Positions 5,911 to 59,728 of a DNA stretch of 64,000 nt are shown piece after piece. Below the pieces are notes generated by a model. The model saw only the letters and a program-made list of their open reading frames with translations, was not told the DNA's origin and did no database searches. The stretch is from NCBI RefSeq assembly GCF_024521635.1, contig NW_026250417.1, forward strand, positions 62,001-126,000. The letters are read 5' to 3'. The number at the start of each line of letters is the position of its first letter. The stretch's first letter is position 1. Source of the DNA: Tricharina praecox. Taxonomy: Eukaryota. A program made the translations under genes and the position numbers.

Positions 5911-6762
5911 CTAACCAGTCCAGACAGAACCTACGTCCATATATATTAGCAACAGTCGCGGTGAGATGAATTATTGGGAGAGCGTACCTCCAGGAGCCTG
6001 ATACACCGCCAGTCCTTGATTGAACTTCCACAGCTCCGCCAAAATGCCGGGATGGTCCGGATCGTAAGCCCCCGGCAGCGCCACACCAGTGGGATTAGCG
6101 GATCCACCACCCGTGATAACGATCTGTGCACACGAAGGGTAGAACTGTGCGCCCATCCTCGTGCTAGCCACATGCAGACCCAGGATCTCGTGGCGGAGAA
6201 GGTAGTTCCCGTTGCTTAGGGACTTGGGAATTGTAACGGTCCAGCTTGCACCCAGACTCGCAAGCTTGTCTGAGCCCCAGGGAGGAGTTTGGTCCGCTTT
6301 GTAACCCCATTCGTCGATTTTCACCCATACGTTGCCGGTGTTGGCTTTGCAGGTGGAGAAGTCACCGGGGCCTGTTATGGGTCAGCAAGGAGTACCGAGA
6401 AGCAAGGCAGGAGGGAGGATACATTTTGCAACATAAGTCATCACTGGCCCGGAGTGGGAGCTCCCCCACTGGTCCCACTGGAACTTAACCTGGGAACCAG
6501 CCGTCACAGGGATGTTATTTGCGATGGGGATGTTCCCGCCCTTGTTGCAGGTGATATCCGCGGTCGTAAAGTCCGGGACTGGACCGTTATCGGGGAATAC
6601 ACGCGTGTAGCGCACAGGGGTTGGAGTGATGTATGGATCCGAATATGGTTGCCAGCCGCCGTAGGATTTGCCATCGACGATGATTTCTTTCAGGTAGCCG
6701 TGGCCAAGGACGCCGGGCGCCAGTGTGGCGGCCAAGAGGAGGGGAATGGTGGTGAAATGCAT
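5911..6762 (-). CDS. AA9 (GH61) lytic polysaccharide monooxygenase, ~247 aa, no CBM; exons 6762-6423, 6371-5988, 5930-5911
   Basis: Signal peptide followed by His1 (HGY), SSHSGPV, YLLRHEILGLH and GAQFYPSCAQI; introns 6372-6422 and 5931-5987 have canonical sites; ends PGGSVWTG*. Confidence 0.95.
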
Positions 6763-7481
6763 GTCTGCGAGGCGTGGGGAGGGAAGTGAAAAGAATAGCT
6801 GGCGGGTGGAGGGATTTATACTGACAGGAGCAATGTACCCAACCGGATCCTCGGGCCTGTGGGGAGCGAGGTGGTACTCCGTGCCAGTATCATTTACATC
6901 ACGAGGTTGTGTAGGCAAAACATAGCCCTGGAATATGTCATTAATGCACGGACGTTGTAACTGCAGAGTTAATCTATTTAGAGTAGATGATCTTGGCTAG
7001 CGAGCGGGGTCTCCGTGTTTTCGGAGGTCCCGGCCGGGAGATTGATCGGCCCGGCGGAACCGTAGGGATTCCAACAGTCAAGCGAGTGATAGAAGGAGGT
7101 TTTGTTGGGGGGTGGCGGTGGGAGGGGTTCGGAGTACTTGTATTTAAGCTAGGACGCTCCTACTCGAGGCGGTAACTTCTTGTTGGTTGGATGCCGAGGC
7201 GGGAAGAGCTCCCACTTTGGGAATCTCGCGAACTGATCATGTGCAGGTACCTGCTTTCGGCTCTCACTTGGCCGACCGGCAAGGACCAAAAACATCCGGA
7301 GGCTTTGGAGAGAAGTAATAGGTATTTCCAGCGTCCATGGGTTCCTTGAGATTCTATTCATTCCAGACACAACGCATGACCAATATTTCCCCGCAAATCA
7401 AATCAGCAAAGCGAATCAAATCGAATCCAACCAAACGTCGAAAACCCCGCCATCAATGGATTACCACCCATCCCAGCGCCA

Positions 7482-8156
7482 TCAATCCATGTAATCAAGC
7501 TCCTCCTCGATCCCCAAAGTCTGGCGGATCTTATCAATCACCTCCTGTTCCTTGCCACTATCCTTGAGGAGCTTCTCGAGCGCGTAGATATTATCTGCTT
7601 TGCTGTCAGCACTCCTTACAGGCCTATGCAACCGGAATGCCCCACCGATCATCTCATTCACGCTCAGCCTCAGCTTTTCCTTCTCACTCAACGCCACCTC
7701 CGCTCCCTTAGTGCTCCTAATCTCCTTCAACTCCTCCCTAGCCGCCTCCCTTCTGTCCTCAGCCTCCCTCAACCTATCCACCAGCTCAAGCCTGTCGCCG
7801 CCTCCCTCGCCCCCAGCAATTCTCTCCTTCTCCTCCTGCATCATCGCCTGCACGTTCTCTAACGCCGCCCTTGCCTTATCCCTCTCCTTCGTCGCCTCAG
7901 CGAGGAGGTTCAGCTTCTGCCGTACCGCGTCGGCGGGGAAACTCCAGTACCAGTTTCCGGAACCGATTTTCTCAACGCTGATGAGACTCTCTGCAACTAG
8001 TGCTGCGATGTACTCTTTCACCAGCATCCCGGAGATCCCAGCTGCAGGGGGGAGGGATTTCTCGAGGTCCTTGAGGGTGTGCGCGACGCGGGTTGTGCGG
8101 AAGTAACTGAGAACTAGCTGTAGCTTGCCGTTCGGGAGGTCTTTGGACTGGCCCAT
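7482..8156 (-). CDS. MND1: Meiotic nuclear division protein 1 (~207 aa after removing in-frame intron 7595-7645)
   Basis: HTLKDLEK..GISGMLVKEYI..L..VEKIGSGNWYWSF winged-helix signature followed by coiled coil; splicing restores the family-typical xDNIY motif. Confidence 0.92.
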   Translation of the reverse strand: MGQSKDLPNGKLQLVLSYFRTTRVAHTLKDLEKSLPPAAGISGMLVKEYIAALVAESLISVEKIGSGNWYWSFPADAVRQKLNLLAEATKERDKARAALENVQAMMQEEKERIAGGEGGGDRLELVDRLREAEDRREAAREELKEIRSTKGAEVALSEKEKLRLSVNEMIGGAFRLHRPVRSADSKADNIYALEKLLKDSGKEQEVIDKIRQTLGIEEELDYMD

Positions 8157-8974
8157 TGTTGTGGTGGAGCGGCGTGATGGGTTGGGTTGATGTGGGGTGG
8201 AGTGAGAGTGGGTAGGCGTTTCTATGGGAGAGGGCGAATAGGCGTTGCTATGACTGGGAGTGAGTGATGCCGTAGAAGGAATTAGCGTTGAGCATAGCCG
8301 TCACTCGACTGGACACGACTTCTTCCGGGATGTTTCGTTCTCTTTGAATAGCATCACATATGCTCGAATTCATCTCGTCGGTCATTTTGGATCTTGATTT
8401 GGATGCTTTCGAACATGCTGTGTTTAGAGTGCCATCACGCTTCGAAGCAACGATGCACCACGTTCGTTATGGCTGAAGAGTGGCGCTCGATGGCTTGAAT
8501 GTGTGACATCAGCCACGCAAATATGATCAACTGAGAAACCGGCATTTCACCGAGCTGAATACAATCGATCGCCCCTGCATACACAATTGCTGCTCCTGCA
8601 AAGTTTCAACTTTCAACTCGCTGGAGATGTCTTGGTACATTGGTTAGGTGTGAGGTAAGTACTTACCTAAGTAAGTACACTTACTTACGCACTTCTACGA
8701 TTGGCTGTGAACCGAGAAGCTGTGGCTGCTGCGGGGCTGGAGCTCAAGCTACGGAACCCCTCGCTCACACCCACCTACTCCCCCATCCTGACCCGGCAAC
8801 CACCGCTGACGTCGTGGGCTCCTACACAAAAATCACGTCTGCACTCCTCCGCTTCAGTCACAGACCATCTATCGGTTCTCGATCGCCATCTCGGGGCTTG
8901 TCACTTGAACGCCAACCTTTCGGCTCTCGACCCCTGTTGCGTATCTGAGGCAACCTACCACCACAGCCATCGCA

Positions 8975-10462
8975 ATGCCATTCCGAATCCTCGACCTTCC
9001 GAACGAGCTCATCCGCGAGATCATCCGGGCTCTTCCCTTCAAAACCGTCTTCACTATTCAGCACGTAAACCACCGCTTCCATGGGCTAGCACAGGACCTT
9101 CTATACAAGAGGCTTGGCGACATCACAAGCGACAACAGCGGCGGAGTCTGCCTCACGTCGCTGGATGCCCTCGAGCTGCTCCGGCTGTTCAACAGGAAGC
9201 CATACCTCGTGAATCGTGTGCAGTCTATGTGCATAAACTGGGACTGGGAATCCGGATGTGTACCGGATCTTGAAGACTCGAGGTGCCTGGAGGATCCCAT
9301 GACGGAGGTAGATCTGGCGATCTGGGCGAGGGAGGTCAAGGCGCTGGAGTTGACGGAGGAACGGTTTCCGTATATGCCGTACCTTGAGTCGGGAGATTAT
9401 TTCTACGCGGGTGATCGGTCGACGGGATTCGTGGATGTGGCGCTGCCGTTGCTTCTGGCGAAGCTGGTGAATCTGGAGGTCCTCGAGTGTAGGGGATACG
9501 CCCACGGCGCGTTTTGCTTTCCCTCCATGTGGCAGACGTTCAAGCAGCCAGTGTTTCGGAATCTTCAGAGACTGATTTGGACGGATTATGACGGGATGCC
9601 GTGTTTTCCGGTGGTCTATATCATTCCCATGATAATGGTTGCGCCGAGGTTGGAGTGTGTGTCCACAACGGGAGGAATCGGTTCGATGGGTGCCGATGAC
9701 GATGTGGAGTCCATCTTTTTCTCAGACGGGAGACCCGGGCAGATGCTGCTTGATGCACTCGTCGCTCCCGGGTTCCAATGCAACATCACATCGCTAGAAT
9801 TCATTAGGGCTAACATCCAACCGAAGTTATTCCGGTGGCTCCTCGCACGAACCAAGAAGCTCCAACGGTTCAAATACACAGTGTGGGATGAAGAGAAATT
9901 CATTGGGATTCCGTACCGACTCATCCTGGGAGAGATGATGGAAGCCTTGATAGAAGTCCGCCACACCCTTCAGGTTCTCTATCTCGATGTGGAACTGCGC
10001 AGACGTGGATATTTGGCGGATGATCTAGCAGTGGTCGAAAACCTATCAGCCCAGTTCGAGTCCTTTGAGGATTTTTATCAGCTGCGGAAGATGACCGTCA
10101 ACTTTTACCAGATGGTCCCGCTCCGCACCGTCCTCACTCCAATGGCAAAGCCAACCATCCTCGACCGCCTTCCGCCAAACTTGGAGTACTTCGCCTTCAC
10201 GGATGGCGTGGGCAGGGAGAATATAAGGATGCTGTATGATGTCACTTTAGAGGAGTATCACGAGGAGGTCACGAAGAATATGTTGCAGGTTCTCCAGGCT
10301 AAGGTGGAAGGCGAAAGGATGCAGAGCTTGCGGTCGGTGGTGACTCCATTCCCTCACGATGAGGACTCAAGATGGGAGCTGGCTGAGGCTTGCAGAACGG
10401 GAGGCGTGACTTGTGAATTTTGGGATACAGCCTCTGGAGTTTCGGGAGGGGATGAGTTATGA
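8975..10462 (+). CDS. F-box domain protein, 495 aa, intronless, with probable degenerate LRR-like body
   Basis: N-terminal ILDLPNELIREIIRAL...VNHRFHGLAQDLLY F-box pattern; LxxL segments (LVNLEVLE, FRNLQRL, LPPNLEYF). Confidence 0.85.
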   Translation: MPFRILDLPNELIREIIRALPFKTVFTIQHVNHRFHGLAQDLLYKRLGDITSDNSGGVCLTSLDALELLRLFNRKPYLVNRVQSMCINWDWESGCVPDLEDSRCLEDPMTEVDLAIWAREVKALELTEERFPYMPYLESGDYFYAGDRSTGFVDVALPLLLAKLVNLEVLECRGYAHGAFCFPSMWQTFKQPVFRNLQRLIWTDYDGMPCFPVVYIIPMIMVAPRLECVSTTGGIGSMGADDDVESIFFSDGRPGQMLLDALVAPGFQCNITSLEFIRANIQPKLFRWLLARTKKLQRFKYTVWDEEKFIGIPYRLILGEMMEALIEVRHTLQVLYLDVELRRRGYLADDLAVVENLSAQFESFEDFYQLRKMTVNFYQMVPLRTVLTPMAKPTILDRLPPNLEYFAFTDGVGRENIRMLYDVTLEEYHEEVTKNMLQVLQAKVEGERMQSLRSVVTPFPHDEDSRWELAEACRTGGVTCEFWDTASGVSGGDEL

Positions 10463-12096: not shown

Positions 12097-12741
12097 ATGC
12101 CGACCGCCAACTTCGCGACGTTCCTAATCATCTGCCGTTTGTTCCGCCCGTTTGCGCCGCGCACGCGCGCTCGCTTGCTAACCTCATCAGCGACATGTTT
12201 CGTCCTCGGCATTCTGTTCACGAATTGGTCCTATGACCACCACACACTGTGGTCCACCCTCCCCATGTCGGAAGCCACCATCGCCGCCGTCGAAACCCAC
12301 TACAGCATGCTCTGCCGGTCGCCGCCGATCCTCGCCCGCCTCCTCCACGCCGTCATCGTCACCGGCCTGCTGGGTTTCTTCGTTAAGCTCTACCGCCCGA
12401 GCGAGAGCAACATGCTTTTCGATGGCGCCAGTCTGGTGCTATACATGATCGGCCTCATCATGTACGGTACCAACATCATCCGTGGGCTGCGTACGGTGGA
12501 GAGTGGTGAGTACGGTGAGGATATTGGGCGCGTTGATACGCTGAGGGTCATGGCGGCTAGCCATGTCATCCTTGCGTTGGTATTGGTGGGTGTCCTGGTT
12601 CTGCAGAGTGGACAATGGTACGCGGAGAGGAAGGAGGGGCAGGAGGTGGCTGCGGCGATACAGTTGGAGGAGGAGGAGGAGGAGAAAAGGTTGGCAGCTG
12701 CCGCCGTGGTGGACAAGACGAAGAGTAAGAAGAGGAATTAG
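12097..12741 (+). CDS. SHR3: ER membrane chaperone of amino-acid permeases, Shr3 family (~196 aa after intron 12137-12190)
   Basis: Spliced N-terminus FATFLIICPTCFVLGILF; KLYRPSESNMLFDGASLVLY; VMAASHVILALVLVGVLVLQSGQWYA; four hydrophobic segments and a charged tail. Confidence 0.92.
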   Translation: MPTANFATFLIICRLFRPFAPRTRARLLTSSATCFVLGILFTNWSYDHHTLWSTLPMSEATIAAVETHYSMLCRSPPILARLLHAVIVTGLLGFFVKLYRPSESNMLFDGASLVLYMIGLIMYGTNIIRGLRTVESGEYGEDIGRVDTLRVMAASHVILALVLVGVLVLQSGQWYAERKEGQEVAAAIQLEEEEEEKRLAAAAVVDKTKSKKRN

Positions 12742-13543
12742 TGGATGTATGGGAAAAGGTGGACCCAGGAGCTTGAGGTTCTTTTCAATTTTAAGTTGAT
12801 GCCATGTGGAGAAGACTCTACTTACTGGAATCAATATCGCTATCAGCAGCACAGTGTCGGCCGGACGCCCATCCATCCAGCTTGCTGTCAAAATGTGATC
12901 CTACTGATATCACCATGTGACATATACCTCCAATTTTGTCTGATGCCGGTTTATGAACACGTGCCCGCGAGCACCGAACGGAATCCATTCACTCTCGGAA
13001 GAGAAGGTGCAGGATATCTTCCAAGACGATGGCGACGTTTTCGGAATCATCGTCTAAGGGCCGACACGTAAGGCTACGAAAAACTCGGATCGGCCCATCT
13101 CGCAAGAAACCCGAAACCCCCAGTGAAGGTCCAGACCAAAGATCGAGCGATCCGGTGAAGGGAGGTAGGTTGTCACGCGACTCGGACAAGTCGTGAAGGA
13201 AGATGAGGGGTCACTATCGATCACCACCCGAGTACGCAGGCAATGCACGTTTCAGTATGTAAAACCACTTGACTTCATTCGTTCGCATCCAACCCTAATC
13301 TGACACTGTTCCCGTAGACCGAAGACCGAAGACGGTGATAAACCAGAGCTCCCCCCAAAAATGCGCACAACCAAAGTCGAATCGAATGAACATTCATTCT
13401 CCAGCAAAGACAAAGACAAAGGAAATAGGAAATAGGAAAATAGGAAAAAAATGACAAAAGAAAACATTTCCATCCTTGCTAATCCGGCTATCCCTCACTT
13501 ACTCTTACCAAATGTTGGGGAGGGGGCGAGGACGAAGGGGAAG

Positions 13544-16500
13544 TTAGTACACGGTTCCGCAAGGAGCGGTGGTGCCCTTGATGACGGTAGTGGTCTTCTC
13601 GCAGACCTTGACTGGAGCGACCTCCTTCACAACGGTGACAGGCTTAACCGGGGCGCAAGGGCGGACAGTCTCGAAGTACTCATTGGGGCGGACAGTCTCG
13701 ATGGTGACGGCGTTGGGGCTCTTGTAGACAGCCTTGCTCTCAAAGTCGACGAGCTCAAGGTTGGCTGGAGGGCATCCGAACTCGGCCTCGTGGATGGCGT
13801 GTGCTGTGGTGCAGCTGTCAGTGCAGCTGTCAGTGCAGCCGGGGTAAGCGTATCCGCGCTTCACGTTGATGTTGATGTTCTCGTTGATGGTTCCTCCAGT
13901 GCACTCACCCTCGGAGTGAGCGATGGAGTGGGGGATTTCGCAGCAGTTGCCGCCGCCGCAGTTGCCGTTGTTTCCGCAGCAGCAGTTGTTGCAGCAGTTG
14001 TTGCTGCAGCAGCTGTTGTTCTCCCGGTGACGCTCGTGACGGTCGCAGCGGTTGTTGTTGTTGTCGATGGGGCAATACTGGAGGGGCTGAACGGCGGCAG
14101 CACTAGGGATAGCGGCGGCAGCGGCAGTGGGGCAGGGCTGAGCGGCGTAGTTGTTCTGGATGGGCTGGATCACCTGGGGGCTGTTGCAGTCGCACGATGA
14201 GGAGCTGGGGCATCCGCAGAAGCCCTCGTTGTTTCCAGAGTTACCGCTGTTGATGGTGTTTCCGCCGAACTCCTGGCCACCGCAAGAGCCACAGCCGCTG
14301 TCGCAGTCGCTGTTGCAGCTGGTGTTTCCGAAACTGCCACCGTTGCCGCTCTCGCCGCTGTTGATGGTGTTTCCGCCGAACTCCTGGCCTCCGGAGCTGC
14401 CACACTCCTCCTGACGCTTATAAAGTCCATTGCATCCGCAAGCCTCGGTGCAAGGCTCCTTGGTGCACTTGACGATGGGAGCATTGGTTGCCTGGGAGTG
14501 GACGGGCTTGACGTGCTGGTCAACGACGGGCTGCACAACGTCCTGGACGGGTTGGATAATGTCGACGGGCTGGACATCTTCGGAGGTGTTGATGCGGGTG
14601 GGCTCAACGCGGGTGACCTTGGGCTCAATCACATCTGTCTTGGGCGCATAGCCGGCTGTGCCGCGAACGGAGTAGGGACCGGTAGCGGACCCGGAGGCAA
14701 AAGGGCCGGGGCCAGCAATACCGTTCACGTAGCCGGCGTAAGGAGCGGCGGCGGCAGGAGCAGCAACACCGTTGGCAAAGCCAGTGAAAGGAGCAGCAAC
14801 ACCGTTGGCATAGCTAGTGAAAGGAGCGGCGGCGGCTGCTGCATTGTAGCCAGAGTAGCTACCGGGAAGGGCGGCAGCAGGGGTGAAGCGGTCGCCCGCT
14901 TCGACGATGGGCTCCTCCACAGTGTTCACCACCGGGGCGTTGATAGTCTCGGAGTGGACGGGCCTAATGTGCTGGTCAACAACAGGCTGAACGACGTCCT
15001 GGACAGGCTGGATGATGTCAACAGGCTGGACCTGTTTGGAGTTGTTGACGATCGGGGCCTTGGTCTCAGTGACAGCGGGCTTGACCACATCGCACTTGGT
15101 GGGGCATCCACAGAAGTTTGCGGGGCATCCGCAGTCACGGCGGGCGACGCCGTTGCAGCAAGCCTTAGTGCAGGGCTCGACACAAGTGTTGACGATGGGA
15201 GCGTTTGTGGACTGGGAGTATACAGGCTTGACGTGCTGGTCGACTACGGGCTGCACAACGTCCTGAACGGGTTGGATAATGTCGACGGGCTGGACATCTT
15301 CGGAGGTGTTGATGCGGGTGGGCTCAACGCGGGTGACCTTGGGCTCAATCACATTCGCTTTGGGTGCATAGCCAGCCGGACCGACGACAGACGCGGAGTA
15401 TGGGCCGGTTACAGAGGCGGGCGCGAAAGGGCCGGGCGCAGCAATACCGTTCACGTAGCCGGCGTAAGGAGCGGCGGCGGCAGGAGCAGCAACACCGTTG
15501 GCAAAGCCAGTGAAAGGAGCGGCGGCGGCTGCTGCATTGTAGCCAGAGTAGCTACCGGGAAGGGCAGCAGCAGGGGTGAAGCGGTCGCCCGCTTCGACGA
15601 TGGGCTCCTCCACAGTGTTCACCACCGGGGCGTTGATAGTCTCGGAGTGGACGGGTCTAATGTGCTGGTCAACAACAGGCTGAACGACGTCCTGGACAGG
15701 CTGGATGATGTGAACAGGCTGGACCTCCGTGGAGTTGTTGACGATCGGGGCCTTGGTCTCAGTGACAGCGGGCTTGACCACATCGCACTTGGTGGGGCAT
15801 CCACAGAAGTTTGCGGGGCATCCGCAGTCACGGCGGGCGACGCCGTTGCAGCAAGCCTTAGTGCAGGGCTCGACGCAAGTGTTGACGATGGGAGCTTTGG
15901 TGCACTCGGAGTATACGGGCTTGATGTGCTCCTCAACGATCGGCTGGATGACCTTGTGCACGGGCTGAATGACCTCCGCCGGAGTCACGACAGGCTGGAC
16001 GACTGTGGTAGCAGGGCGGGAGACGCGAGTAGGACGGACGACACGAACTCGGTCAGCTTCCTCGTTGGAAGAGGCGCTCGCCGAAGCGCAGGCAGTAGCA
16101 CCGGCACCTGCCGATTCGTCGACCTCCTCCAAGGCATCGTTGCATCCGCAACCGCCGAAACCGACGTCCTGGCCGCGTTTGTACAAGTCGCAGCCGCAGG
16201 CGGACTGGGGGGCGGCAGTGCAGGTCACAGCCGGGGCGGTGACGACGACCTCAGGGCAAGGCTGAGCCACCTCCTCAACAATCTCAGCGATGGGACCATT
16301 GTGGATGTTCTTGTTCTCAGCACCGGAAGCAGCGTTGGCCTCGGTGTTGATGTAGTTGTTCACGATCGGTGCAGGCTGGCACGTGGGAGTGGGGTAGGTG
16401 ACCACAAACTCGGTGTAAGGAACCTTTTCGATCTCAGTGACGGTGTGGCAGGTCGTGACTGGAACTGCAACGGGGATCTTCTCCACCACCGGAACGTACT

Positions 16501-17959
16501 CTGTGGTGGTGATCTCAACAGGGCAAGGCGGGGGCTGGGGCTTGTTGAGGTTCTTGTTGATGTTGATGTTCTTGGTAGGGTTATGCTGGTAGTTGCGGCG
16601 CGCAAGAGGCGAGCCCTTGATCAGGCCAACATCACGCTTGTTCAGGAAGGACAGGAAGGAGCGAGTGTTTGCGAATCCAGTGTTGCCGAGGATCTCGGCA
16701 TCGACGTTCTGGTTGTTCTGAATGCTCTGGACGATGTTCTGGTTGTCACTGGAGCAATCCATCATCTGCCGCTTCGAGTGCTGCTTGGAGTGCTCAGCAT
16801 TGTTAAAACGATCGCCCGCGCAGCGGTTGCGGTTGGAGGATTGGGAGCTGGAGTTCTGGGCGACGGCGCCTTTGGGCTTGCCATTGGGCCTGCACTGGCC
16901 GTAGCATGGGTTGCATCCGTAGTTGCAAGGGTTGTTGAACTGCTGCTGCTCACGGTCCGCGAAGGTGACGGAGTTGATGACATTGAACTCGTCCATACCA
17001 CCGAATGCACCCCTCGTAAGGCCACCGAGCGAGCGCTTGGCCTTGAAGAAACCGGAATCGGCGAACTTGACGTCGTTGATGACATTGAACTCGTCCTTGC
17101 TTCCGCATGAAGAGGTCGGGGTGGGGGCAGCAAAGAAGACAGGCTGGGTCACAACCTGGGTCGCGGTCTCAGAGCCGAAGAACTCATCAATCGGGAGGTT
17201 GGCCATCAGACCCTGATTGGCGTCGACCTCCTGGTAGATGTTCTGGTTGTCACGGTCGGCCTTGAACTGGCGCTTCTCCTGGGCGCATGGCTCGCAAGTG
17301 CCGCAGCCGCCGCAGGAGGGGGATGTCGCAGGGTAAGCTTGGTATGCGGCGGGGAAGGCAGCCTGGAAGGTGGCGGGGAAGCCAGTGCAGGTGGGAACGG
17401 CGCAACCGCCGGTGCAGGCAGGGACGCCGCACAATCCGGCCCTGTTCATGGTGGGCATGCGGACCTTCTCGACCTTGCGTCCAACCTCAGCGTTGATGTT
17501 CTGGTTGTTGTCGATGCTCTGGTTGACGTTGTGGCACCGGTTGCATCCGCTTCCGCCGCAGCCGTCGCCGCATCCACCGCCGTTGCCACCGCAGCAGCCG
17601 CCGTTGTTGCAATTGCTGCAGCAGTTGCTCTCGTTGCATCCCTGCTCGCAGCGGTGGTTGCGGTTGCGGCTGCTGCCATCGCCGTCCTCACGGTGGCGGT
17701 TGCTCAGGTGGTTGTTGTTCTGCTCACGGTTGCATTGCTCGTTGCAAGAACCGCCGTTGCGCTTCACAACGATGCCGTCGGCAACGGCAGTGTTCCCGAT
17801 CAACTGGGCATTGGCGGAATCTGTAAAGTCCTCGGCGACGGGCGCCGCAGGGAGGATAGCGGTCGTCTCGGAACCGACAATGCGCTGGGGAGCAGCATTG
17901 GCGAAGACTCCGAGGGAGACGACAGCGAGGACAAGCGAGTGGTTGATCTGCATCTGCAT
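13544..17959 (-). CDS. Large secreted Cys/Asn/Val/Pro-rich repetitive protein (1471 aa), probable Kex2-processed polyprotein of unknown function
   Basis: 4.4-kb intronless ORF with strong C-ending codon bias; signal peptide (..LVLAVVSLGVFANA|AP); 8 KR and 3 RR sites; internal duplications; upstream TATA and 5'UTR intron. The start could be 17959 or 17953. Confidence 0.9.
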   Translation of the reverse strand: MQMQINHSLVLAVVSLGVFANAAPQRIVGSETTAILPAAPVAEDFTDSANAQLIGNTAVADGIVVKRNGGSCNEQCNREQNNNHLSNRHREDGDGSSRNRNHRCEQGCNESNCCSNCNNGGCCGGNGGGCGDGCGGSGCNRCHNVNQSIDNNQNINAEVGRKVEKVRMPTMNRAGLCGVPACTGGCAVPTCTGFPATFQAAFPAAYQAYPATSPSCGGCGTCEPCAQEKRQFKADRDNQNIYQEVDANQGLMANLPIDEFFGSETATQVVTQPVFFAAPTPTSSCGSKDEFNVINDVKFADSGFFKAKRSLGGLTRGAFGGMDEFNVINSVTFADREQQQFNNPCNYGCNPCYGQCRPNGKPKGAVAQNSSSQSSNRNRCAGDRFNNAEHSKQHSKRQMMDCSSDNQNIVQSIQNNQNVDAEILGNTGFANTRSFLSFLNKRDVGLIKGSPLARRNYQHNPTKNININKNLNKPQPPPCPVEITTTEYVPVVEKIPVAVPVTTCHTVTEIEKVPYTEFVVTYPTPTCQPAPIVNNYINTEANAASGAENKNIHNGPIAEIVEEVAQPCPEVVVTAPAVTCTAAPQSACGCDLYKRGQDVGFGGCGCNDALEEVDESAGAGATACASASASSNEEADRVRVVRPTRVSRPATTVVQPVVTPAEVIQPVHKVIQPIVEEHIKPVYSECTKAPIVNTCVEPCTKACCNGVARRDCGCPANFCGCPTKCDVVKPAVTETKAPIVNNSTEVQPVHIIQPVQDVVQPVVDQHIRPVHSETINAPVVNTVEEPIVEAGDRFTPAAALPGSYSGYNAAAAAAPFTGFANGVAAPAAAAPYAGYVNGIAAPGPFAPASVTGPYSASVVGPAGYAPKANVIEPKVTRVEPTRINTSEDVQPVDIIQPVQDVVQPVVDQHVKPVYSQSTNAPIVNTCVEPCTKACCNGVARRDCGCPANFCGCPTKCDVVKPAVTETKAPIVNNSKQVQPVDIIQPVQDVVQPVVDQHIRPVHSETINAPVVNTVEEPIVEAGDRFTPAAALPGSYSGYNAAAAAAPFTSYANGVAAPFTGFANGVAAPAAAAPYAGYVNGIAGPGPFASGSATGPYSVRGTAGYAPKTDVIEPKVTRVEPTRINTSEDVQPVDIIQPVQDVVQPVVDQHVKPVHSQATNAPIVKCTKEPCTEACGCNGLYKRQEECGSSGGQEFGGNTINSGESGNGGSFGNTSCNSDCDSGCGSCGGQEFGGNTINSGNSGNNEGFCGCPSSSSCDCNSPQVIQPIQNNYAAQPCPTAAAAAIPSAAAVQPLQYCPIDNNNNRCDRHERHRENNSCCSNNCCNNCCCGNNGNCGGGNCCEIPHSIAHSEGECTGGTINENININVKRGYAYPGCTDSCTDSCTTAHAIHEAEFGCPPANLELVDFESKAVYKSPNAVTIETVRPNEYFETVRPCAPVKPVTVVKEVAPVKVCEKTTTVIKGTTAPCGTVY
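14470..15925 (-). repeat. Intragenic tandem duplication, unit 693-720 bp (231-240 aa), ~2 copies
   Basis: 14521 matches 15241 (offset 720); 14821 matches 15514 and 15181 matches 15874 (offset 693); few substitutions plus small in-frame indels. Confidence 0.95.
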
Positions 17960-18165: not shown

Positions 18166-18173
18166 TTTATATA
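18166..18173 (-). promoter_or_regulatory. TATA box of the polyprotein gene
   Basis: TATATAAA on the minus strand followed by a pyrimidine-rich CATC/TCATTC initiator-like region. Confidence 0.65.
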
Positions 18174-20462
18174 GATTCCGCCCTCCATATGTTTCCCTGT
18201 GAGTCCGCTAGAGAAATCCTCATGATTGGGAGGGTGTTTGGTTCCCAAACCTTGCGGAGCAGGAAGATCGTGCTCGCAAGGCTGGAGTGGCCATGGAACG
18301 CCGCATAAACCCCCTTCGTATAATCTTGAGGTCCGTGTCAAGTTCGAGGCATAGAGAAATGACTTGTCTGCTCCATTGCAACCCAGTGTATGGAAACCTG
18401 AGAAGCCGTGCATATAGTCCGCCCTGACGCTTGCGGCCAGCAACTCGGGCCGACTATATTCACCAGGTCGACCGTTCCTAACATCCGGTAGAAAGATGCG
18501 AGCATAAAAACCTTATTGACCCAAGCCGTGGTAGTCTAATATCCGTGATCTTATTCCACCGCTGCAGCTCTTGATTTACTGCTACTATGCCTTATCAGGG
18601 ACCATGGGAATAGGGTTCTCAGGGACCAGTCGGATCTTTAAGCATGTGGGATGAAGCATGACCAAATTAGGTTCAAGCATCTTTTTATTCCCACTCTGCA
18701 GAATATACCTTCGTGCGGAATATATCCGTGACCTAGACCCCTTTTCGGAAACTCGCCATATTTTTCCCACAGCCTTTGCAACGGCGAGAAGCTCTACCTA
18801 CGTCTACTTGATCCCGCAGGTAGTCGGCAAATAAAAGCTTTTCACTGACTAACATCCCCCGGCTTAAGGTTTTGGGATTACCATAGGGTTTGAGGCGATT
18901 CTGGTTACAGTAACGCCTCCAATACCTAAAGCTAGAAGAACCGTAGTATAAAGGCGACCGATGTCAGTGCATCGCCTTCCTTTTCCGATGGTGGAACTCA
19001 TCTATGGAAACCCGGACGTGCACGGCAACCCGTCGATTATCGCCCGTGTACCATAGGTTCGGTCGACCGGATAATGTCTTTGCAACTGTGCATTGCCGGA
19101 CGAAACAGATCCCTCCAACGCCGCCGTCGGTATCATATCGCTGAAGAAGACGATCCCCACCCTGCGTGCGAAATCTTCAAAAACAACTGTCATAGCTGCC
19201 CCGAATGTACATACTACCTAGTATGACCATCCTGATGATACCTATCCACGACAAGCCGAGCTGTAGGTGCCCGGTAAGTTGTGAGGGTTTGAAATGAGCA
19301 CTGACCTCAGGCTGGTCCTCACCAGCTGATGCCGTGACCGTCTAGGGCAGAGTCCATATTTGTATCGGCACATCGCCATCAGCAGTCATTCGCAGTTTTC
19401 CCTCCACTGATCGAAATTCTCTTCCGAGTGGACTGGACCGTTGAGAGATTTTCGTCAGCAAGGGCGTTTCCCTGATACAAGATATGTTGGTAAACCTCTT
19501 CTCTCCTCCTTTGAACCCTTAAGCACAATCCCATAGATGTCGGTGTTTACTCATTGATTGCTTGCGACCTATCTAAGTCATGACAATGTACCCATACCGT
19601 TGCCTTGTCCATTGTTCAACCTGACATCGATCAGTCCCCAGCGGCCCGTTGTGGCTTCCCCAGCAAAACACAACCTTTTTTTATTGTTTAATCATTAATT
19701 ACTTGCGACCTATCTAGATTGTGGCAGTACACGCATCGTTTCCATGTCCACTATCCAGCTCCTGCAGAATGCAAGCCGGCAGTCAGGCTGGTCAGCCAGA
19801 TTTATACCGAGTAATAATCTGTGGGTCTCTCCATTCCTTGGCAATCTTTCAACGGCACAATGTACGGTATTTTCTCATGCACACACTCACACAGTTGCAT
19901 GTTTGTATTTCCATAATCCAAGTCCACCACATGCACCAGGATCGGGAGCCGTTTTTGATGCTCGTGAATACCGCGTCGTCCATCTCATCTCCAACGGTAG
20001 GTGTGATGTAAACATCGAAGGAATTCTCAAATACCGGAGATCGAAACCTGACTGCTTAATCAAGGTCTTACCGAACGGACGATACACACTTGATCGATCA
20101 CATTCACCCCGCCGGCGGCTGGCTCCGAAAACCGATCGCGACTTCATGTGACCGCGCCTACCAAAATCCGATTGACCTATGCATTGACTTCCGCAATGAT
20201 CGCCAGTCGACGTCGATTCGGCTGGAACGGCTAGGACCCACTTCGCGCATCGGATTCGGCTAATGACGTGAACTGCTCCCAGCGATCATCGGGGAATTTT
20301 CCTCAAGAGCCCTCTCCGCTCGATCCTCCCGGTGTCGAAGCGTGTAACTAGAGAGATCAGTATGACGTTTACGATCTTCAAATCCCCATGTAACGAACAT
20401 ATCAATGCCCCTCCAGTGTGTACTTATACCCCTCTTCGTTTCCGCTTCCTTCGTCGCTATCA

Positions 20463-21464
20463 ATGAACTTCGTATTCCGTCTCTCGAGCTCACTGCGTCC
20501 AACCCTTACCAAAAACTTCACAAAACCCACGACCACTGCATTCTCCAGAAAAATGTCAAACGCCGCCGGAACACCTGGGGCCGACCGCCTGACCGCCAAC
20601 CACCTCTTCTCCTTCCCCCAGACATACGTCGCCGTCGTTACCGGAGGCGCCACCGGAATCGGCTTGATGATCACGCAGGCGCTGGCCACGAACGGTGCAA
20701 AGGTGTACATCACTGGCCGACGCGAGAAAGACCTTGAGAACGTGGCGAAGCGGTATCCCGGCAAGATCATTCCCGTGGCGGCCGATATCACCGATGAGGC
20801 GTCCGTCCAGAAGCTAGTGGCCGAGGTCGGAAAGAACGAGCCGAAAGGCATCCACCTGCTCGTCAACAACGCCGGTGTTGCGAAGGAAAAGCAGACGACC
20901 TCCTTCTCCACCGCCGACGTTGACTTCAAGAATGCCGACAGTCTCGCGAAGCACCTGGCGAAGGCCACGCGCGAGAGCTGGGCCGAGACTTTCGAAACGA
21001 ACGTGACGGCGCAGTACTTCACCTCGGTCGCTTTCGTCCCCCTGCTCGCTGCGGGAACGAAAAACACCCCCGGTTATTCCAGCAGCATCGTCAACATCGC
21101 ATCCATCAGCGGCGTGATGAAGAACAGCAGCAGGGGGCAGTTCGCTTATGCGGCTAGCAAAGCTGCGTTCTTGCAACTCACACGGAATCTGGCGACCACG
21201 TTGAAGGAAATCAAGGTTAGGGTCAACTCGATCGCGCCTGGCATCTTCCCGAGCGAGATGACGGCGGATTCGAGTGACGAGGCGGGAAAGAGTTCGCTTG
21301 AGGGTACTGGGAAGGCGGATGGGATCCCGGCTGGCCGCACGGGAAGTGAACAGGACATGGCTGCAGCAATCCTGTACCTGGCCGGCCCTGGTGGAGTGTT
21401 CGTGAACGGGCTGACCGTTTATGTGGACGGTGGAAACCTCCTTACTGCTCCGTCTGTTGCATAA
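20463..21464 (+). CDS. Classical short-chain dehydrogenase/reductase (alternative start 20553)
   Basis: VVTGGATGIG, LVNNAG, IVNIASISG, YAASK and VRVNSIAPG motifs; the ORF-track start at 20418 is a GTG. Confidence 0.95.
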   Translation: MNFVFRLSSSLRPTLTKNFTKPTTTAFSRKMSNAAGTPGADRLTANHLFSFPQTYVAVVTGGATGIGLMITQALATNGAKVYITGRREKDLENVAKRYPGKIIPVAADITDEASVQKLVAEVGKNEPKGIHLLVNNAGVAKEKQTTSFSTADVDFKNADSLAKHLAKATRESWAETFETNVTAQYFTSVAFVPLLAAGTKNTPGYSSSIVNIASISGVMKNSSRGQFAYAASKAAFLQLTRNLATTLKEIKVRVNSIAPGIFPSEMTADSSDEAGKSSLEGTGKADGIPAGRTGSEQDMAAAILYLAGPGGVFVNGLTVYVDGGNLLTAPSVA

Positions 21465-22438: not shown

Positions 22439-24364
22439 ATGTCGTCTTCAGTACTCCCGAATGGACTACTCCATCTCCTTCTCCTTTCGTGCGCTCTCCC
22501 AGCCTTCGCCGCAATCAAGGCAAAGCCCGTAATGCTACCCTTAAGCAAACAGTAAATCGACATTACCCCTTCAAGATGGCCCACCCATACTGACAGTTTC
22601 AGGTATGGCATCGGTCCCGGGGGCATATGGTACTCGACGCCGCTCACCGTAGGCTCCACGAACGTCAACCTTACGCTGTCAACTTCCCTCCAACACTCCT
22701 GGATTCCAGGCGCAGAGCTCTGCTCGAGTGCCTCCAACGAAACCGCTTGTCGGGAGCCACTGGGCGGCGAATTTCCGAGCACCATCGACGGGGTGGATTC
22801 CGGCATCGCAAAAGAGTTGGGGGAGATATACCCCGAATCGAAGCTACTTCCTGCGCAAGACAAGGACTCCCAGTCGCCGCTTTCATTGAGCGGGAAGGGC
22901 AAAGTTTCGAAGCAGAAGATTACGGTGAAATCCTCCAACGCTGGATCGTTCGACCTGGGAGAGGACCTGACGATCGGCGTGTTCACAACCGAGAAACCAA
23001 ACTTCAACGGCTACCTGAGTCTTCCACAGATATCGTCGGAGCTGTTCAAGGCTGGGGCTACACCGGGGAACAATTTTCACATGTGGTTGGGACCGAGCGT
23101 GGAATCGAACGAAAGTAGCATTCCCGCTGAAAATAGCATCCGCAAGGAACACCTACTCATCTTCGGGGGCTACGATGGAAGCGCATTCGACCTAAACCAG
23201 ACGCAGCAGTACCGACTAGGAGAGGATGGGAAAATCCAGACGGAGCTGGAAGACTTGATCTACCGGTGGACTGACACGGGGGAAACCGACAACTCTCTCC
23301 TCGAGGACTCCCACGCGGTCGTGATCGACACCACGACGCCGTACCTCTGGCTCCCACAGAAGAGCGTTGACAAGCTCGTCACCATGGCCGGTGCAACGTG
23401 GAACGACAGCATGGACGCCTACTCCTTCACCACCTGTTTCAGCGATTGCACGGTTGAGGAAGACAACAGTCGCTCCGCGAGCCTGGACTTGATCCTCATC
23501 ACTGGCCAGAAGATCAGCATTTCCTTTCTCGACTTCTTCCGGGTGCAGACGGGCTGGTGGATATACGGGTCGAACTACAATCTGCCCGTACTTCCCGTGC
23601 GCGCACTGAAAGACGATAATGAGCCCATCGTGCTCGGCCGTGCGGTGATGGCGGCGCTGCACCTATGGGTCGACTACGACGAGGAGTACTTCGGCATCAA
23701 GGCGGTCAATCGAACCGAATACACGTACGCGAAGACCCAGATCGTCAGCTGGGGCTCGGACCACGCGCCCATCACCAACACCAGCATTCTGGCCGCGGCC
23801 CGGACAACCTCGAACTCCTCGCCATCTTCGACCTCCACCTCCACCTCAACCAGCTCAAATTCCGACGACAAAGGCGGAGTACCGATCACGCTGATCGCGG
23901 CCGCTACCGGCGGCGCCGCCGTAGCCGCCGTCCTCGGCGGCATCCTCGCATGTATTCTGCTGCGGCGCCGCCGCGAGAAAAAGCGTCTCGCAAACCTTGC
24001 GCCCACGAACCGCTACAGCCGCCAGGAGCTGCCCACGGACCGGATTCCCGCCACCACCACGACCACGGGTCCGCCGACACAGTTTGCTTCGGAGCTGCCA
24101 CAGGCGGGCGAGTACTACCAGCTCCACGAGCTGGATAGCAAGGTCACACTGCCGTACCAGGCACACATGTCGCCTGCGCCGGGATATAAGATGCCCACCG
24201 GGCATGGGCACGGGCACGGGCACGCAGAGGCGTATCCCGCGGGTCCGGATTATAAGCCGCCGGCGCAAGAGCCCTACTACGGCGGGTATCACCCACAGGG
24301 CGCGCAGCCGATGCCGATGCATCAGGTTTCGATACACGAGATGCCGGCGCAGACTTGGAGATAA
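22439..24364 (+). CDS. Single-pass membrane A1 aspartic-protease-like protein (~624 aa), probably catalytically inactive; exons 22439-22551, 22603-24364
   Basis: Signal-peptide exon joined in frame by intron 22552-22602; pepsin-fold motifs LLIFGGYD, VVIDTTTPYLWLP, IVLGRAVM..VDYD; Ser/Thr stalk, TM helix, RRRREKKR, Pro/Tyr/His-rich tail. Confidence 0.88.

Positions 24365-58020: not shown

Positions 58021-59728
<1,708 letters not shown>

What the first reader, a model, noticed from the sequence alone, without database searches (positions are those of the whole stretch)
13544..17959. 1471-aa secreted precursor cut by 11 dibasic sites into different modules: candidate fungal structural polyprotein
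Seen: a signal peptide, then KR at aa 66, 229, 308, 396, 441, 594, 1181 and 1367 and RR at 454, 709 and 940. Several sites share a context (CGCDLYKR / CGCNGLYKR; CCNGVARR x2) and fall at boundaries between compositionally distinct blocks. I found no Trp, no TM helix and no GPI-type tail. Known: Kex2 cleaves after KR/RR; described fungal Kex2-processed repeat proteins (pheromones, Ustilago Rep1 repellents, dikaritin precursors) mostly release short similar peptides. Inference: this gene would release ~12 different 13-240 aa subunits in fixed stoichiometry, suggesting a self-assembling, disulfide-cross-linked wall, spore or fruiting-body matrix encoded as one polyprotein. I do not recognise the family.
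Basis: partly seen in the sequence, partly recalled or inferred. Interest (0 to 1): 0.8.

Follow-up and report, generated by a model that had tools for sequence, protein, structure and literature searches.

The report
Modular secreted polyprotein of cup fungi
This is a real, mis-annotated fungal gene from an undescribed cup-fungus family whose secreted proteins are strings of swappable cysteine-rich building blocks joined by conserved cutting signals, probably supplying structural material for the fruiting body.

Summary
In detail: a 1471-aa uninterrupted ORF with a signal peptide, 8 KR and 3 RR sites (KR 8 vs 1.8 expected, p=0.0002; RR not enriched). It belongs to an undescribed family found only in Pyronemataceae records and environmental sequences (no Pfam or PDB match). 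There are two unlinked paralogues in this genome, which NCBI's identical records name Tricharina praecox. In 14 relatives KR is enriched (53 vs 8.7) while RK, KK and RR are not, and 9 of 11 sites align with KR in a 934-aa orthologue. '12 different subunits in fixed stoichiometry' is overstated. Two pieces are 91% identical, a few modules recur and are reshuffled, and site numbers vary (1-10 KR). The Pyronema member (locus link inferred) is about 13-fold up in sexual development. A spliced antisense RNA overlaps the gene, and the public 262-aa model results from reading its intron on the wrong strand. Best reading: a Kex2-processed structural precursor for fruiting-body wall or matrix, like Rep1 but with larger, heterogeneous, Cys-rich modules. 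Cleavage is likely (~0.8); the structural role is inferred (~0.5). Nothing is shown at protein level.

The parts
13544..17959 (-). CDS without stop or sense intron, 1471-aa secreted modular precursor (Q)
   Evidence: collinear with 934-aa orthologue P0017
17894..17959 (-). Predicted signal peptide aa 1-22, conserved across the family
   Evidence: hydropathy; 11-18 of 22 identical in 12 relatives; no SignalP run
17759..17893 (-). Cys-free pro-piece aa 23-67 ending in KR66, the best-conserved site
17270..17758 (-). Piece 2 (aa 68-230): NGG/Cys-Gly-Asn module plus one NQNI motif; shared with paralogue B and L019
16634..17269 (-). Pieces 3-5 (aa 231-309, 310-397, 398-442): Asn/Gln/Ile NQNI motifs and two D/E-F-x-V-x-N motifs; KR308, 396 and 441 have KR counterparts in orthologues
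16595..16633 (-). Piece 6 (aa 443-455), 13-aa spacer ending in RR454 (KR in P0017 and P0018)
16175..16594 (-). Piece 7 (aa 456-595): NKNININ, TEYVP Val/Pro/Glu and PVVNNYI motifs, all present in five orthologues
15830..16174 (-). Piece 8 (aa 596-710): one divergent ~68-aa VQP domain
15137..15829 (-). Piece 9 (aa 711-941): two VQP domains around an Ala/Pro/Gly/Tyr linker
14414..15136 (-). Piece 10 (aa 942-1182): tandem copy of piece 9 (208/229 identical)
13856..14413 (-). Piece 11 (aa 1183-1368): Cys/Gly/Asn module ending in N-I-N-x-KR, an end also seen in P0006, P0007 and P0017
13547..13855 (-). Piece 12 (aa 1369-1471): Val/Pro/Glu/Thr C-terminal module, homologous to the end of P0017
17986..18056 (-). 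Predicted 71-nt 5'UTR intron (donor GTTTGT, branch GCTAAC); similar branch/acceptor signals upstream of 6 relatives; no spliced read seen
   Evidence: prediction; no joint here
18166..18173 (-). TATA-like box upstream of the start codon
   Evidence: seen in the sequence
16394..16451 (+). 58-nt GT..AG intron of an antisense RNA inside the ORF; removing it from the sense reading reproduces the public 262-aa model
   Evidence: joint in RNA-like runs X1 and X3, not in X2 or X4
12097..12741 (+). Convergent neighbour SHR3 (intron 12137-12190). Its contig has a further + strand intron (13255-13317) and runs into the 3' end of Q

Best explanation
Q is a secretory precursor that Kex2 cuts after most KR sites (and probably the RR sites that sit where relatives have KR) into about a dozen 13-240-aa pieces drawn from roughly six or seven module kinds. 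These include Cys/Gly/Asn blocks, Asn/Gln/Ile NQNI strands, a Val/Pro/Glu block and a Pro-punctuated ~68-aa VQP domain. The pieces are secreted together, mainly during sexual development, and build an insoluble wall or matrix layer in the apothecium or spore through strand stacking and disulfides. Shown: gene, family, selective KR conservation, host Kex2, antisense splicing. Inferred: actual cleavage (~0.8), developmental timing (from one homologue), structural role and cross-linking (~0.5-0.6 if cleaved).
For: KR 53 vs 8.7 expected in 14 relatives, while RK (5 vs 8.7), KK (6 vs 7.5) and RR (8 vs 10.5) are not raised. 9 of 11 sites align with KR in P0017 in BLASTP segments; the three tandem sites map to one KR. 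At P1' of 61 KR sites: Q 15 vs 2.5, D 12 vs 3.3, S 10 vs 3.6; P 0 vs 5.0 and V 0 vs 6.2. The excess of acidic P1' residues matches cleaved Kex2 sites (PMC2515848 passages). KR marks the joints where modules are reshuffled between family members. Cys is enriched just after KR (1.31 vs 0.74 per 10 residues, 0 of 5000 permutations). A Kex2-like gene is present. Low-complexity composition with almost no Trp and no enzyme or lectin domain. PCON_04726, the inferred locus of the Pyronema homologue, is 12-13.5-fold up in sexual development (PMC3778014 Table S2). Rep1 is a precedent for Kex2 pieces forming a wall amyloid layer (PMC3133707 passages).
Against: No protein-level data. One third of predicted Kex2 substrates stayed uncut in vitro, and a conserved KR in Pry proteins is not cut. 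Site number varies from 1 to 10 KR, and sites 229 and 594 lack a clear counterpart in most orthologues. The counted sites are related by descent, so they are not independent. More than 20% of Pyronema orphan genes rise in sexual development, so the induction is not specific evidence. The Pyronema homologue lacks the VQP domain. The odd-cysteine pattern in Q (9 of 10 pieces) did not replicate in relatives (26 odd, 34 even). AlphaFold gave no confident fold. Knockouts of six Coprinopsis KEP genes had no phenotype (PMC9769878 passages).
Confidence: 0.5

Rival explanations
1. Cut at only some sites, or cut but held together by disulfides, so that it acts as one multi-chain wall glycoprotein (Pir/Hsp150- or Ywp1-like pro-processing; names recalled except as listed).
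For: KR66 is the site best kept among orthologues. 91 Cys and 10 N-glycosylation sequons. Folded substrates can hide KR sites.
Against: KR is kept at many internal joints, with Kex2-like P1' residues. Cys is not enriched upstream of KR (0.70 vs 0.72), which gives no sign of bridges across the cut.
Confidence: 0.22
2. The pieces are diffusible defence or signal peptides (Ece1-like: one active piece among several), protecting or coordinating the fruiting body.
For: Paralogue B gives 39-53-aa repeats whose tails have high helical hydrophobic moments (0.42-0.69, 5 of 5, no control). Frequent Gln at P1' fits pyroglutamate capping, as seen in Coprinopsis KEP peptides. The signal peptide is conserved while the mature parts vary.
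Against: Most pieces of Q are 80-240 aa, low in complexity and near neutral or acidic. There is no fixed Cys framework and no defensin or toxin family hit.
Confidence: 0.13
3. Extracellular metal-binding or redox-buffer polyprotein using CC/CxC clusters (metallothionein-like), useful on burnt soil.
For: Dense CC/CxC blocks with 21-23 Cys in pieces 2 and 11. Named hosts include Pyronema and Tricharina, whose fire-following habit is recalled and appears in listings.
Against: The secretory pathway favours disulfides (general knowledge). The best-conserved motifs (VQP core, NQNI) have no Cys. Trichophaea, Wilcoxina and Sphaerosporella, recalled as root symbionts, also carry it.
Confidence: 0.06
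4. The KR motifs are never cut in vivo and the protein works whole as a disordered wall or adhesion protein.
For: A conserved but uncut KR is known in Pry proteins.
Against: KR but not RK or KK is enriched six-fold, with P1' bias. The protein is unfolded by prediction, so the sites should be exposed.
Confidence: 0.07
5. Precursor of a dikaritin-type cyclic peptide.
For: Signal peptide plus Kex2 sites.
Against: The only UstYa (DUF3328) locus found is on contig C61, not near Q (C12), A (C1) or B (C28). There are no short repeated cores.
Confidence: 0.02

Closest known systems
KEX2-processed repeat proteins (KEPs; PMC6339444, PMC7329392)
   Same: Signal peptide, no TM helix, at least 4 KR/RR fragments, and three fragments sharing a domain; paralogue B looks like a classic KEP. 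KEP motifs up to 352 aa and 79 KEPs with 2-3 motif types are on record.
   Different: About 6-7 module kinds of 13-240 aa in one chain, reshuffled among unlinked paralogues. Repeats exceed the 100-aa limit of one survey. The Pyronema and Sphaerosporella members are absent from that catalogue.
Ustilago maydis Rep1 repellents (PMC3133707)
   Same: Kex2 polyprotein giving 11 pieces (10 of 34-53 aa, one of 229 aa) that form an amyloid layer in the wall: the closest functional model.
   Different: Rep1 has 12 related repeats; Q's pieces are larger, heterogeneous and Cys-rich (6%). No direct sequence comparison with Rep1 was run; Pfam showed no hit.
Candida albicans Ece1 (passage in PMC7329392; cleavage in PMC2515848)
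   Same: Kex2 precursor releasing eight partly unlike peptides.
   Different: Ece1 pieces are short peptides and one is a membrane toxin; Q's are long low-complexity modules with repeated domains.
Laccaria MiSSP8 (10.1101/218131, abstract)
   Same: Kex2-cut repeat protein expressed in fruiting bodies and linked to hyphal aggregation.
   Different: A small basidiomycete protein with one short repeated motif.
Articulins/alveolins, chorion-type proteins (resemblance recalled; articulin papers seen as search listing only)
   Same: Val/Pro/Glu-rich repeats and Cys-rich arms typical of insoluble scaffolds.
   Different: No Pfam hit for any such family at E<=1 (whole protein) or E<=10 (modules); likely compositional convergence.

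Membership tests
KEP (Le Marquer 2019) | Signal peptide, no transmembrane segment | tested here: met
   Hydropathy and conservation only; SignalP and TMHMM not available
KEP (Le Marquer 2019) | At least 4 fragments after in-silico KR/RR cleavage | tested here: met
   12 fragments
KEP (Le Marquer 2019) | At least 3 similar fragments covering at least 15% of the length | tested here: met
   Pieces 8, 9 and 10 similar (z 22-110); 3 x 115 / 1471 = 23%. Tested by local alignment, not by their FIMO step
KEP (Umemura 2020) | At least 3 tandem repeats of 8-100 aa between Kex2 sites | tested here: not met
   The repeated pieces of Q are 115-241 aa. Paralogue B has 39-53-aa repeats
KEP (both) | Kex2 protease in the host | tested here: met
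   PF01483 hit E=4.5e-26 in an ORF with subtilisin-type motifs
KEP (both) | Cleavage in vivo | not testable with these tools
   Needs proteomics
Dikaritin RiPP precursor | DUF3328/UstYa gene nearby | tested here: not met
   Single locus on C61 (only the best candidates are scored)
Rep1-type repellent | Pieces form amphipathic amyloid at the hyphal surface | not testable with these tools
   Only a weak hint: beta moment exceeds helix moment in 18 of 24 NQNI-type motifs, no control
Alpha-pheromone precursor | Short near-identical cores with XA/XP (Ste13) spacers | tested here: not met
   P2' is Ala or Pro at 2 of 61 KR sites; no short repeated cores in Q
Articulin/alveolin, Pir, hydrophobin or any Pfam family | Family HMM match | tested here: not met
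   No significant hit for Q, A, B or five modules

The most novel reading that the evidence does not exclude
A lineage-specific 'mix-and-match' extracellular material: several unlinked genes use KR-bounded cassettes as interchangeable units, Kex2 frees the subunits, and two new self-assembling elements (the Pro-punctuated VQP domain and the NQNI strand) co-polymerise through Cys-capped ends into the fruiting-body matrix of cup fungi, with the gene held off in vegetative hyphae by an overlapping spliced antisense RNA.
Probability: 0.25. Interest if true: 0.78.

Novelty: new variant of a known kind. Interest (0 to 1): 0.52.

Why it matters
The structural proteins of ascomycete fruiting bodies are poorly known (general knowledge). 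In Coprinopsis, loss of kex2 or kex1 genes blocks fruiting through unidentified substrates (PMC9769878). This family is a concrete, testable candidate class of such substrates in a lineage with a culturable fruiting model (Pyronema). It widens KEPs from short peptides to large heterogeneous modules that current pipelines and annotations miss, defines two new repeat motifs, and shows an antisense splice junction corrupting a public gene model.

Tried and rejected
Full-length word-index search found nothing (0 of 8000 candidates); module and profile searches did. No usable ESM Atlas hit. No Pfam hit at threshold; no PDB sequence hit (0 for VQP, one chance hit at E=2.1 for NQNI). AlphaFold: VQP domain pLDDT 57, pTM 0.11; P0006 pLDDT 37. 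No fold search was run on such models. Four-copy complex of the VQP domain: no answer (score 0.02), evidence neither way. The idea that odd Cys counts force inter-chain bonds was rejected. Cys enrichment on both sides of the cuts was rejected (upstream p=0.57, both sides p=0.11). A second gene copy on contig C3 was rejected: C3 is a 3064-nt chimera of C39 and C12 sequence. Two weak own-genome hits with P0011 (L027, L028) are unrelated low-complexity ORFs. No SHR3, SDR, F-box or aspartyl-protease synteny in 7 of 7 metagenome loci, which are A-like or short members. The run search listed no holder on record as RNA; depths of contigs were not used to rank expression. PCON_04726 is not in the Pyronema antisense table. 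No expression data found for the Trichophaea, Wilcoxina or Sphaerosporella ids in 12 of 20 supplements of PMC7550596. Paper searches showed no description of the family. Subscription papers, including the genome paper for these Pezizales (recalled), are outside the library, and the KEP sequence table of PMC6339444 was not in the held text. I did not check whether a B-like protein is among the 9 Pyronema KEPs of PMC7329392.
Full report
1. Observation. The minus-strand ORF 13544..17959 encodes 1471 aa without a stop. It has KR at aa 66, 229, 308, 396, 441, 594, 1181, 1367 and RR at 454, 709, 940, one RK and no KK. Against 10,000 shuffles KR>=8 has p=0.0002 (1.8 expected); RR (3 vs 1.9) is not raised. 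There is no Trp, and no hydrophobic 19-mer above 1.16 outside the N-terminus. Third positions are C-rich (822 of 1472), which explains the long shadow frames on the + strand. Cutting at all 11 sites gives 12 pieces of 13-241 aa. They are not all different: pieces 9 and 10 are 208/229 identical, piece 8 shares their domain, and pieces 2, 3, 4 and 5 share shorter motifs.

2. Paralogues. A six-frame search of the window's genome (38.4 Mb, 104 contigs) found two unlinked relatives. A (569 aa, contig C1) has nearly the same signal peptide, 3 KR and three copies of a ~68-aa Val/Gln/Pro domain ('VQP') that Q has five times. B (646 aa, C28) has 10 KR and repeats the Cys/Gly/Asn and 'NQNI' modules of Q's N-terminal half. 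Q is thus a mosaic of A-type and B-type modules. A is letter for letter an NCBI hypothetical protein of Tricharina praecox. A further hit on C3 is an assembly chimera.

3. Family. A whole-length word search failed. A VQP profile gave 4 hits among 1738 candidates. phmmer with aa 1-941 on 1.84 billion representatives gave 12 hits at E<=0.001, an orthologue profile gave 4 among 8000 candidates, and the metagenome scan gave 7 loci from 277 pattern matches. All named hits are Pyronemataceae (family placement recalled): Trichophaea hybrida, Sphaerosporella brunnea, Wilcoxina mikolae, Pyronema omphalodes and P. domesticum. The rest are environmental. P0017 (934 aa) is collinear with Q from end to end but has one VQP domain. 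L019 (376 aa) strings VQP, Val/Pro/Glu and Cys/Gly/Asn-NQNI modules in another order, each joint being KR. The VQP domain occurs 19 times in 11 of 15 proteins, with core proline spacing 6-7-8 in all. No Pfam, PDB or Atlas match. These searches cover called proteins, so the range may be wider.

4. Are the KR sites under selection? I used Q plus 14 relatives, leaving out near-duplicates and fragments (L020, L021, L023, L024, P0003, P0005, P0008, P0010, P0013-P0016; P0001 is A). Without Q: KR 53 vs 8.7 expected, RR 8 vs 10.5, RK 5 vs 8.7, KK 6 vs 7.5. In alignments with P0017 (29% identity in the longest segment) KR lies opposite sites 66, 308, 396, 441, 454, 709, 940, 1181 and 1367, the three tandem sites mapping to one KR; 229 and 594 are ambiguous. 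With the dibasic pair masked, flanks alone placed a KR within 6 residues in at least one relative for 9 of 11 sites. Many individual alignments did not, above all around the repeats, and 594 and 1367 gave no positive placement; 1367 is recovered by its N-I-N-x-KR motif in three orthologues. At P1' of 61 KR sites Gln, Asp and Ser are raised and Pro, Val, Ile, Leu, Lys and Arg are absent. An acidic P1' excess marks cleaved Kex2 sites (PMC2515848, passages). Cys is enriched after but not before KR. The genome has a Kex2-like gene. Caveats: the sites are related by descent; site number runs from 1 to 10 KR; one third of predicted substrates were not cut in vitro.

5. Expression. Two runs guessed to be RNA (X1, X3; two studies) show GT..AG joints that the DNA-like runs X2 and X4 lack. 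One joint, 16394-16451, is a + strand intron inside the ORF, i.e. a spliced antisense RNA. The SHR3 contig carries another + strand intron (13255-13317) and extends into Q's 3' end; that these are one transcript is not shown. No joint was seen at the predicted sense 5'UTR intron, and an X1 contig crosses it unspliced; contigs drop rare forms, so this is not absence. The public T. praecox model at this locus (262 aa, P0005) equals Q252-503 plus 10 residues, and is reproduced exactly by removing that interval from the sense reading. It is a mis-annotation, which explains why Q is not in the collection. Antisense splice sites are common in this group (281 genes in Pyronema; PMC3778014 passages).

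6. Developmental hint. P0012 is CCX05139.1 of P. omphalodes CBS 100304 (466 aa). In Table S2 of PMC3778014 (file cut when stored), 11 rows have a 1401-nt CDS, and only PCON_04726 is both without homologue and predicted extracellular. Its 55-nt intron falls in the 5'UTR by arithmetic, as predicted for the family. The implied numbering offset also maps three other accessions to fitting rows, two secreted and one membrane. The link is inferred, not read from a record. PCON_04726 has counts 579/673 (dark), 3145/12187 (sexual) and 583/612 (vegetative mix), i.e. 12-13.5-fold up. The base rate is high: over 20% of orphan genes rise in sexual development (section 9). This homologue shares Q's N-terminal modules but not the VQP domain.

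7. Mechanism. Most likely: signal cleavage near aa 22, Kex2 cuts in the Golgi, and co-secretion of pieces that often start with Gln/Asp/Gly plus a Cys pair. They would assemble into an insoluble layer through Asn/Gln/Ile strands, VQP domains and disulfides. Cleavage rests on statistics (~0.8). The structural role rests on composition, absence of catalytic domains, developmental induction of one homologue and the Rep1 precedent (~0.5 overall). Models gave no confident fold, which fits low-complexity chains but also shallow alignments. Rivals: partial cutting or a disulfide-held multi-chain wall protein (0.22), defence or signal peptides (0.13), uncut (0.07), metal binding (0.06), dikaritin (0.02; the only UstYa locus is elsewhere).

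8. Comparison and novelty. Q meets the Le Marquer KEP criteria as far as I could approximate them (sections 6 and 24 read) and fails Umemura's 100-aa limit (passage). CCX05139 and KAA8893924 are not in Umemura's Table S2, and Tricharina and Trichophaea were not among the strains listed. Unlike pieces from one Kex2 precursor are known (Ece1; Rep1's 229-aa piece), so the principle is not new. The family, its two motifs and the shuffling of KR-bounded modules were not found in eight paper searches. Verdict: new variant of a known kind.

9. Papers seen. PMC6339444: passages, sections 6 and 24, supplement search. PMC7329392: passages, supplement searches. PMC3778014: passages, section 9, rows of Table S2, search of Table S3; 11 of 17 files were not searched. 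PMC2515848, PMC9769878, PMC3133707, PMC6921081: passages. 10.1101/218131: abstract and outline. PMC7550596: 12 of 20 supplements searched. Articulin papers: listing only. Earlier scan notes: none on this genome or sequence; one unrelated note.

Noticed in passing
window 20394-21461 (+): Short-chain dehydrogenase gene. Contigs there have by far the greatest depth in X1 and X3 (about 26,000 and 92,000 in bin 20474-21040); contig depth is a poor measure of expression.
   Followed up: no
window 12742-14273 (+): Spliced + strand RNA downstream of the SHR3 stop, with an intron at 13255-13317, overlapping the 3' end of Q; possible long 3'UTR or read-through.
   Followed up: partly
G000:C3 (L002): 3064-nt contig made of 370 nt identical to C39 and 2687 nt identical to this window: an assembly chimera.
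   Followed up: yes
L008:3983-5920 (-), G000:C28: Paralogue B, a 646-aa classic-looking KEP with 39-53-aa repeats, near a gene that reads like CDC20 (recalled); its exact sequence is not in the protein collection.
   Followed up: partly
window 17520-17725: X2 and X3 contigs join 17723 to 17591 with 20 other letters, and X1 has a loose end at 17526: reads of paralogue B or length variants of the Cys/Asn block.
   Followed up: no
window 6385-10462, 22556-24364, 58565-59728: Neighbours with Pfam hits: AA9 monooxygenase, Mnd1, F-box protein, aspartyl protease-like protein, C2H2 zinc-finger protein.
   Followed up: no
PMC3778014 Table S2, PCON_05490: Row used for numbering calibration: a membrane protein induced over 70-fold in sexual development.
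   Followed up: no
L027 (G000:C12:146841-150239): 597-aa open frame with many NGSAF-type pentapeptide repeats, unrelated to the family.
   Followed up: no
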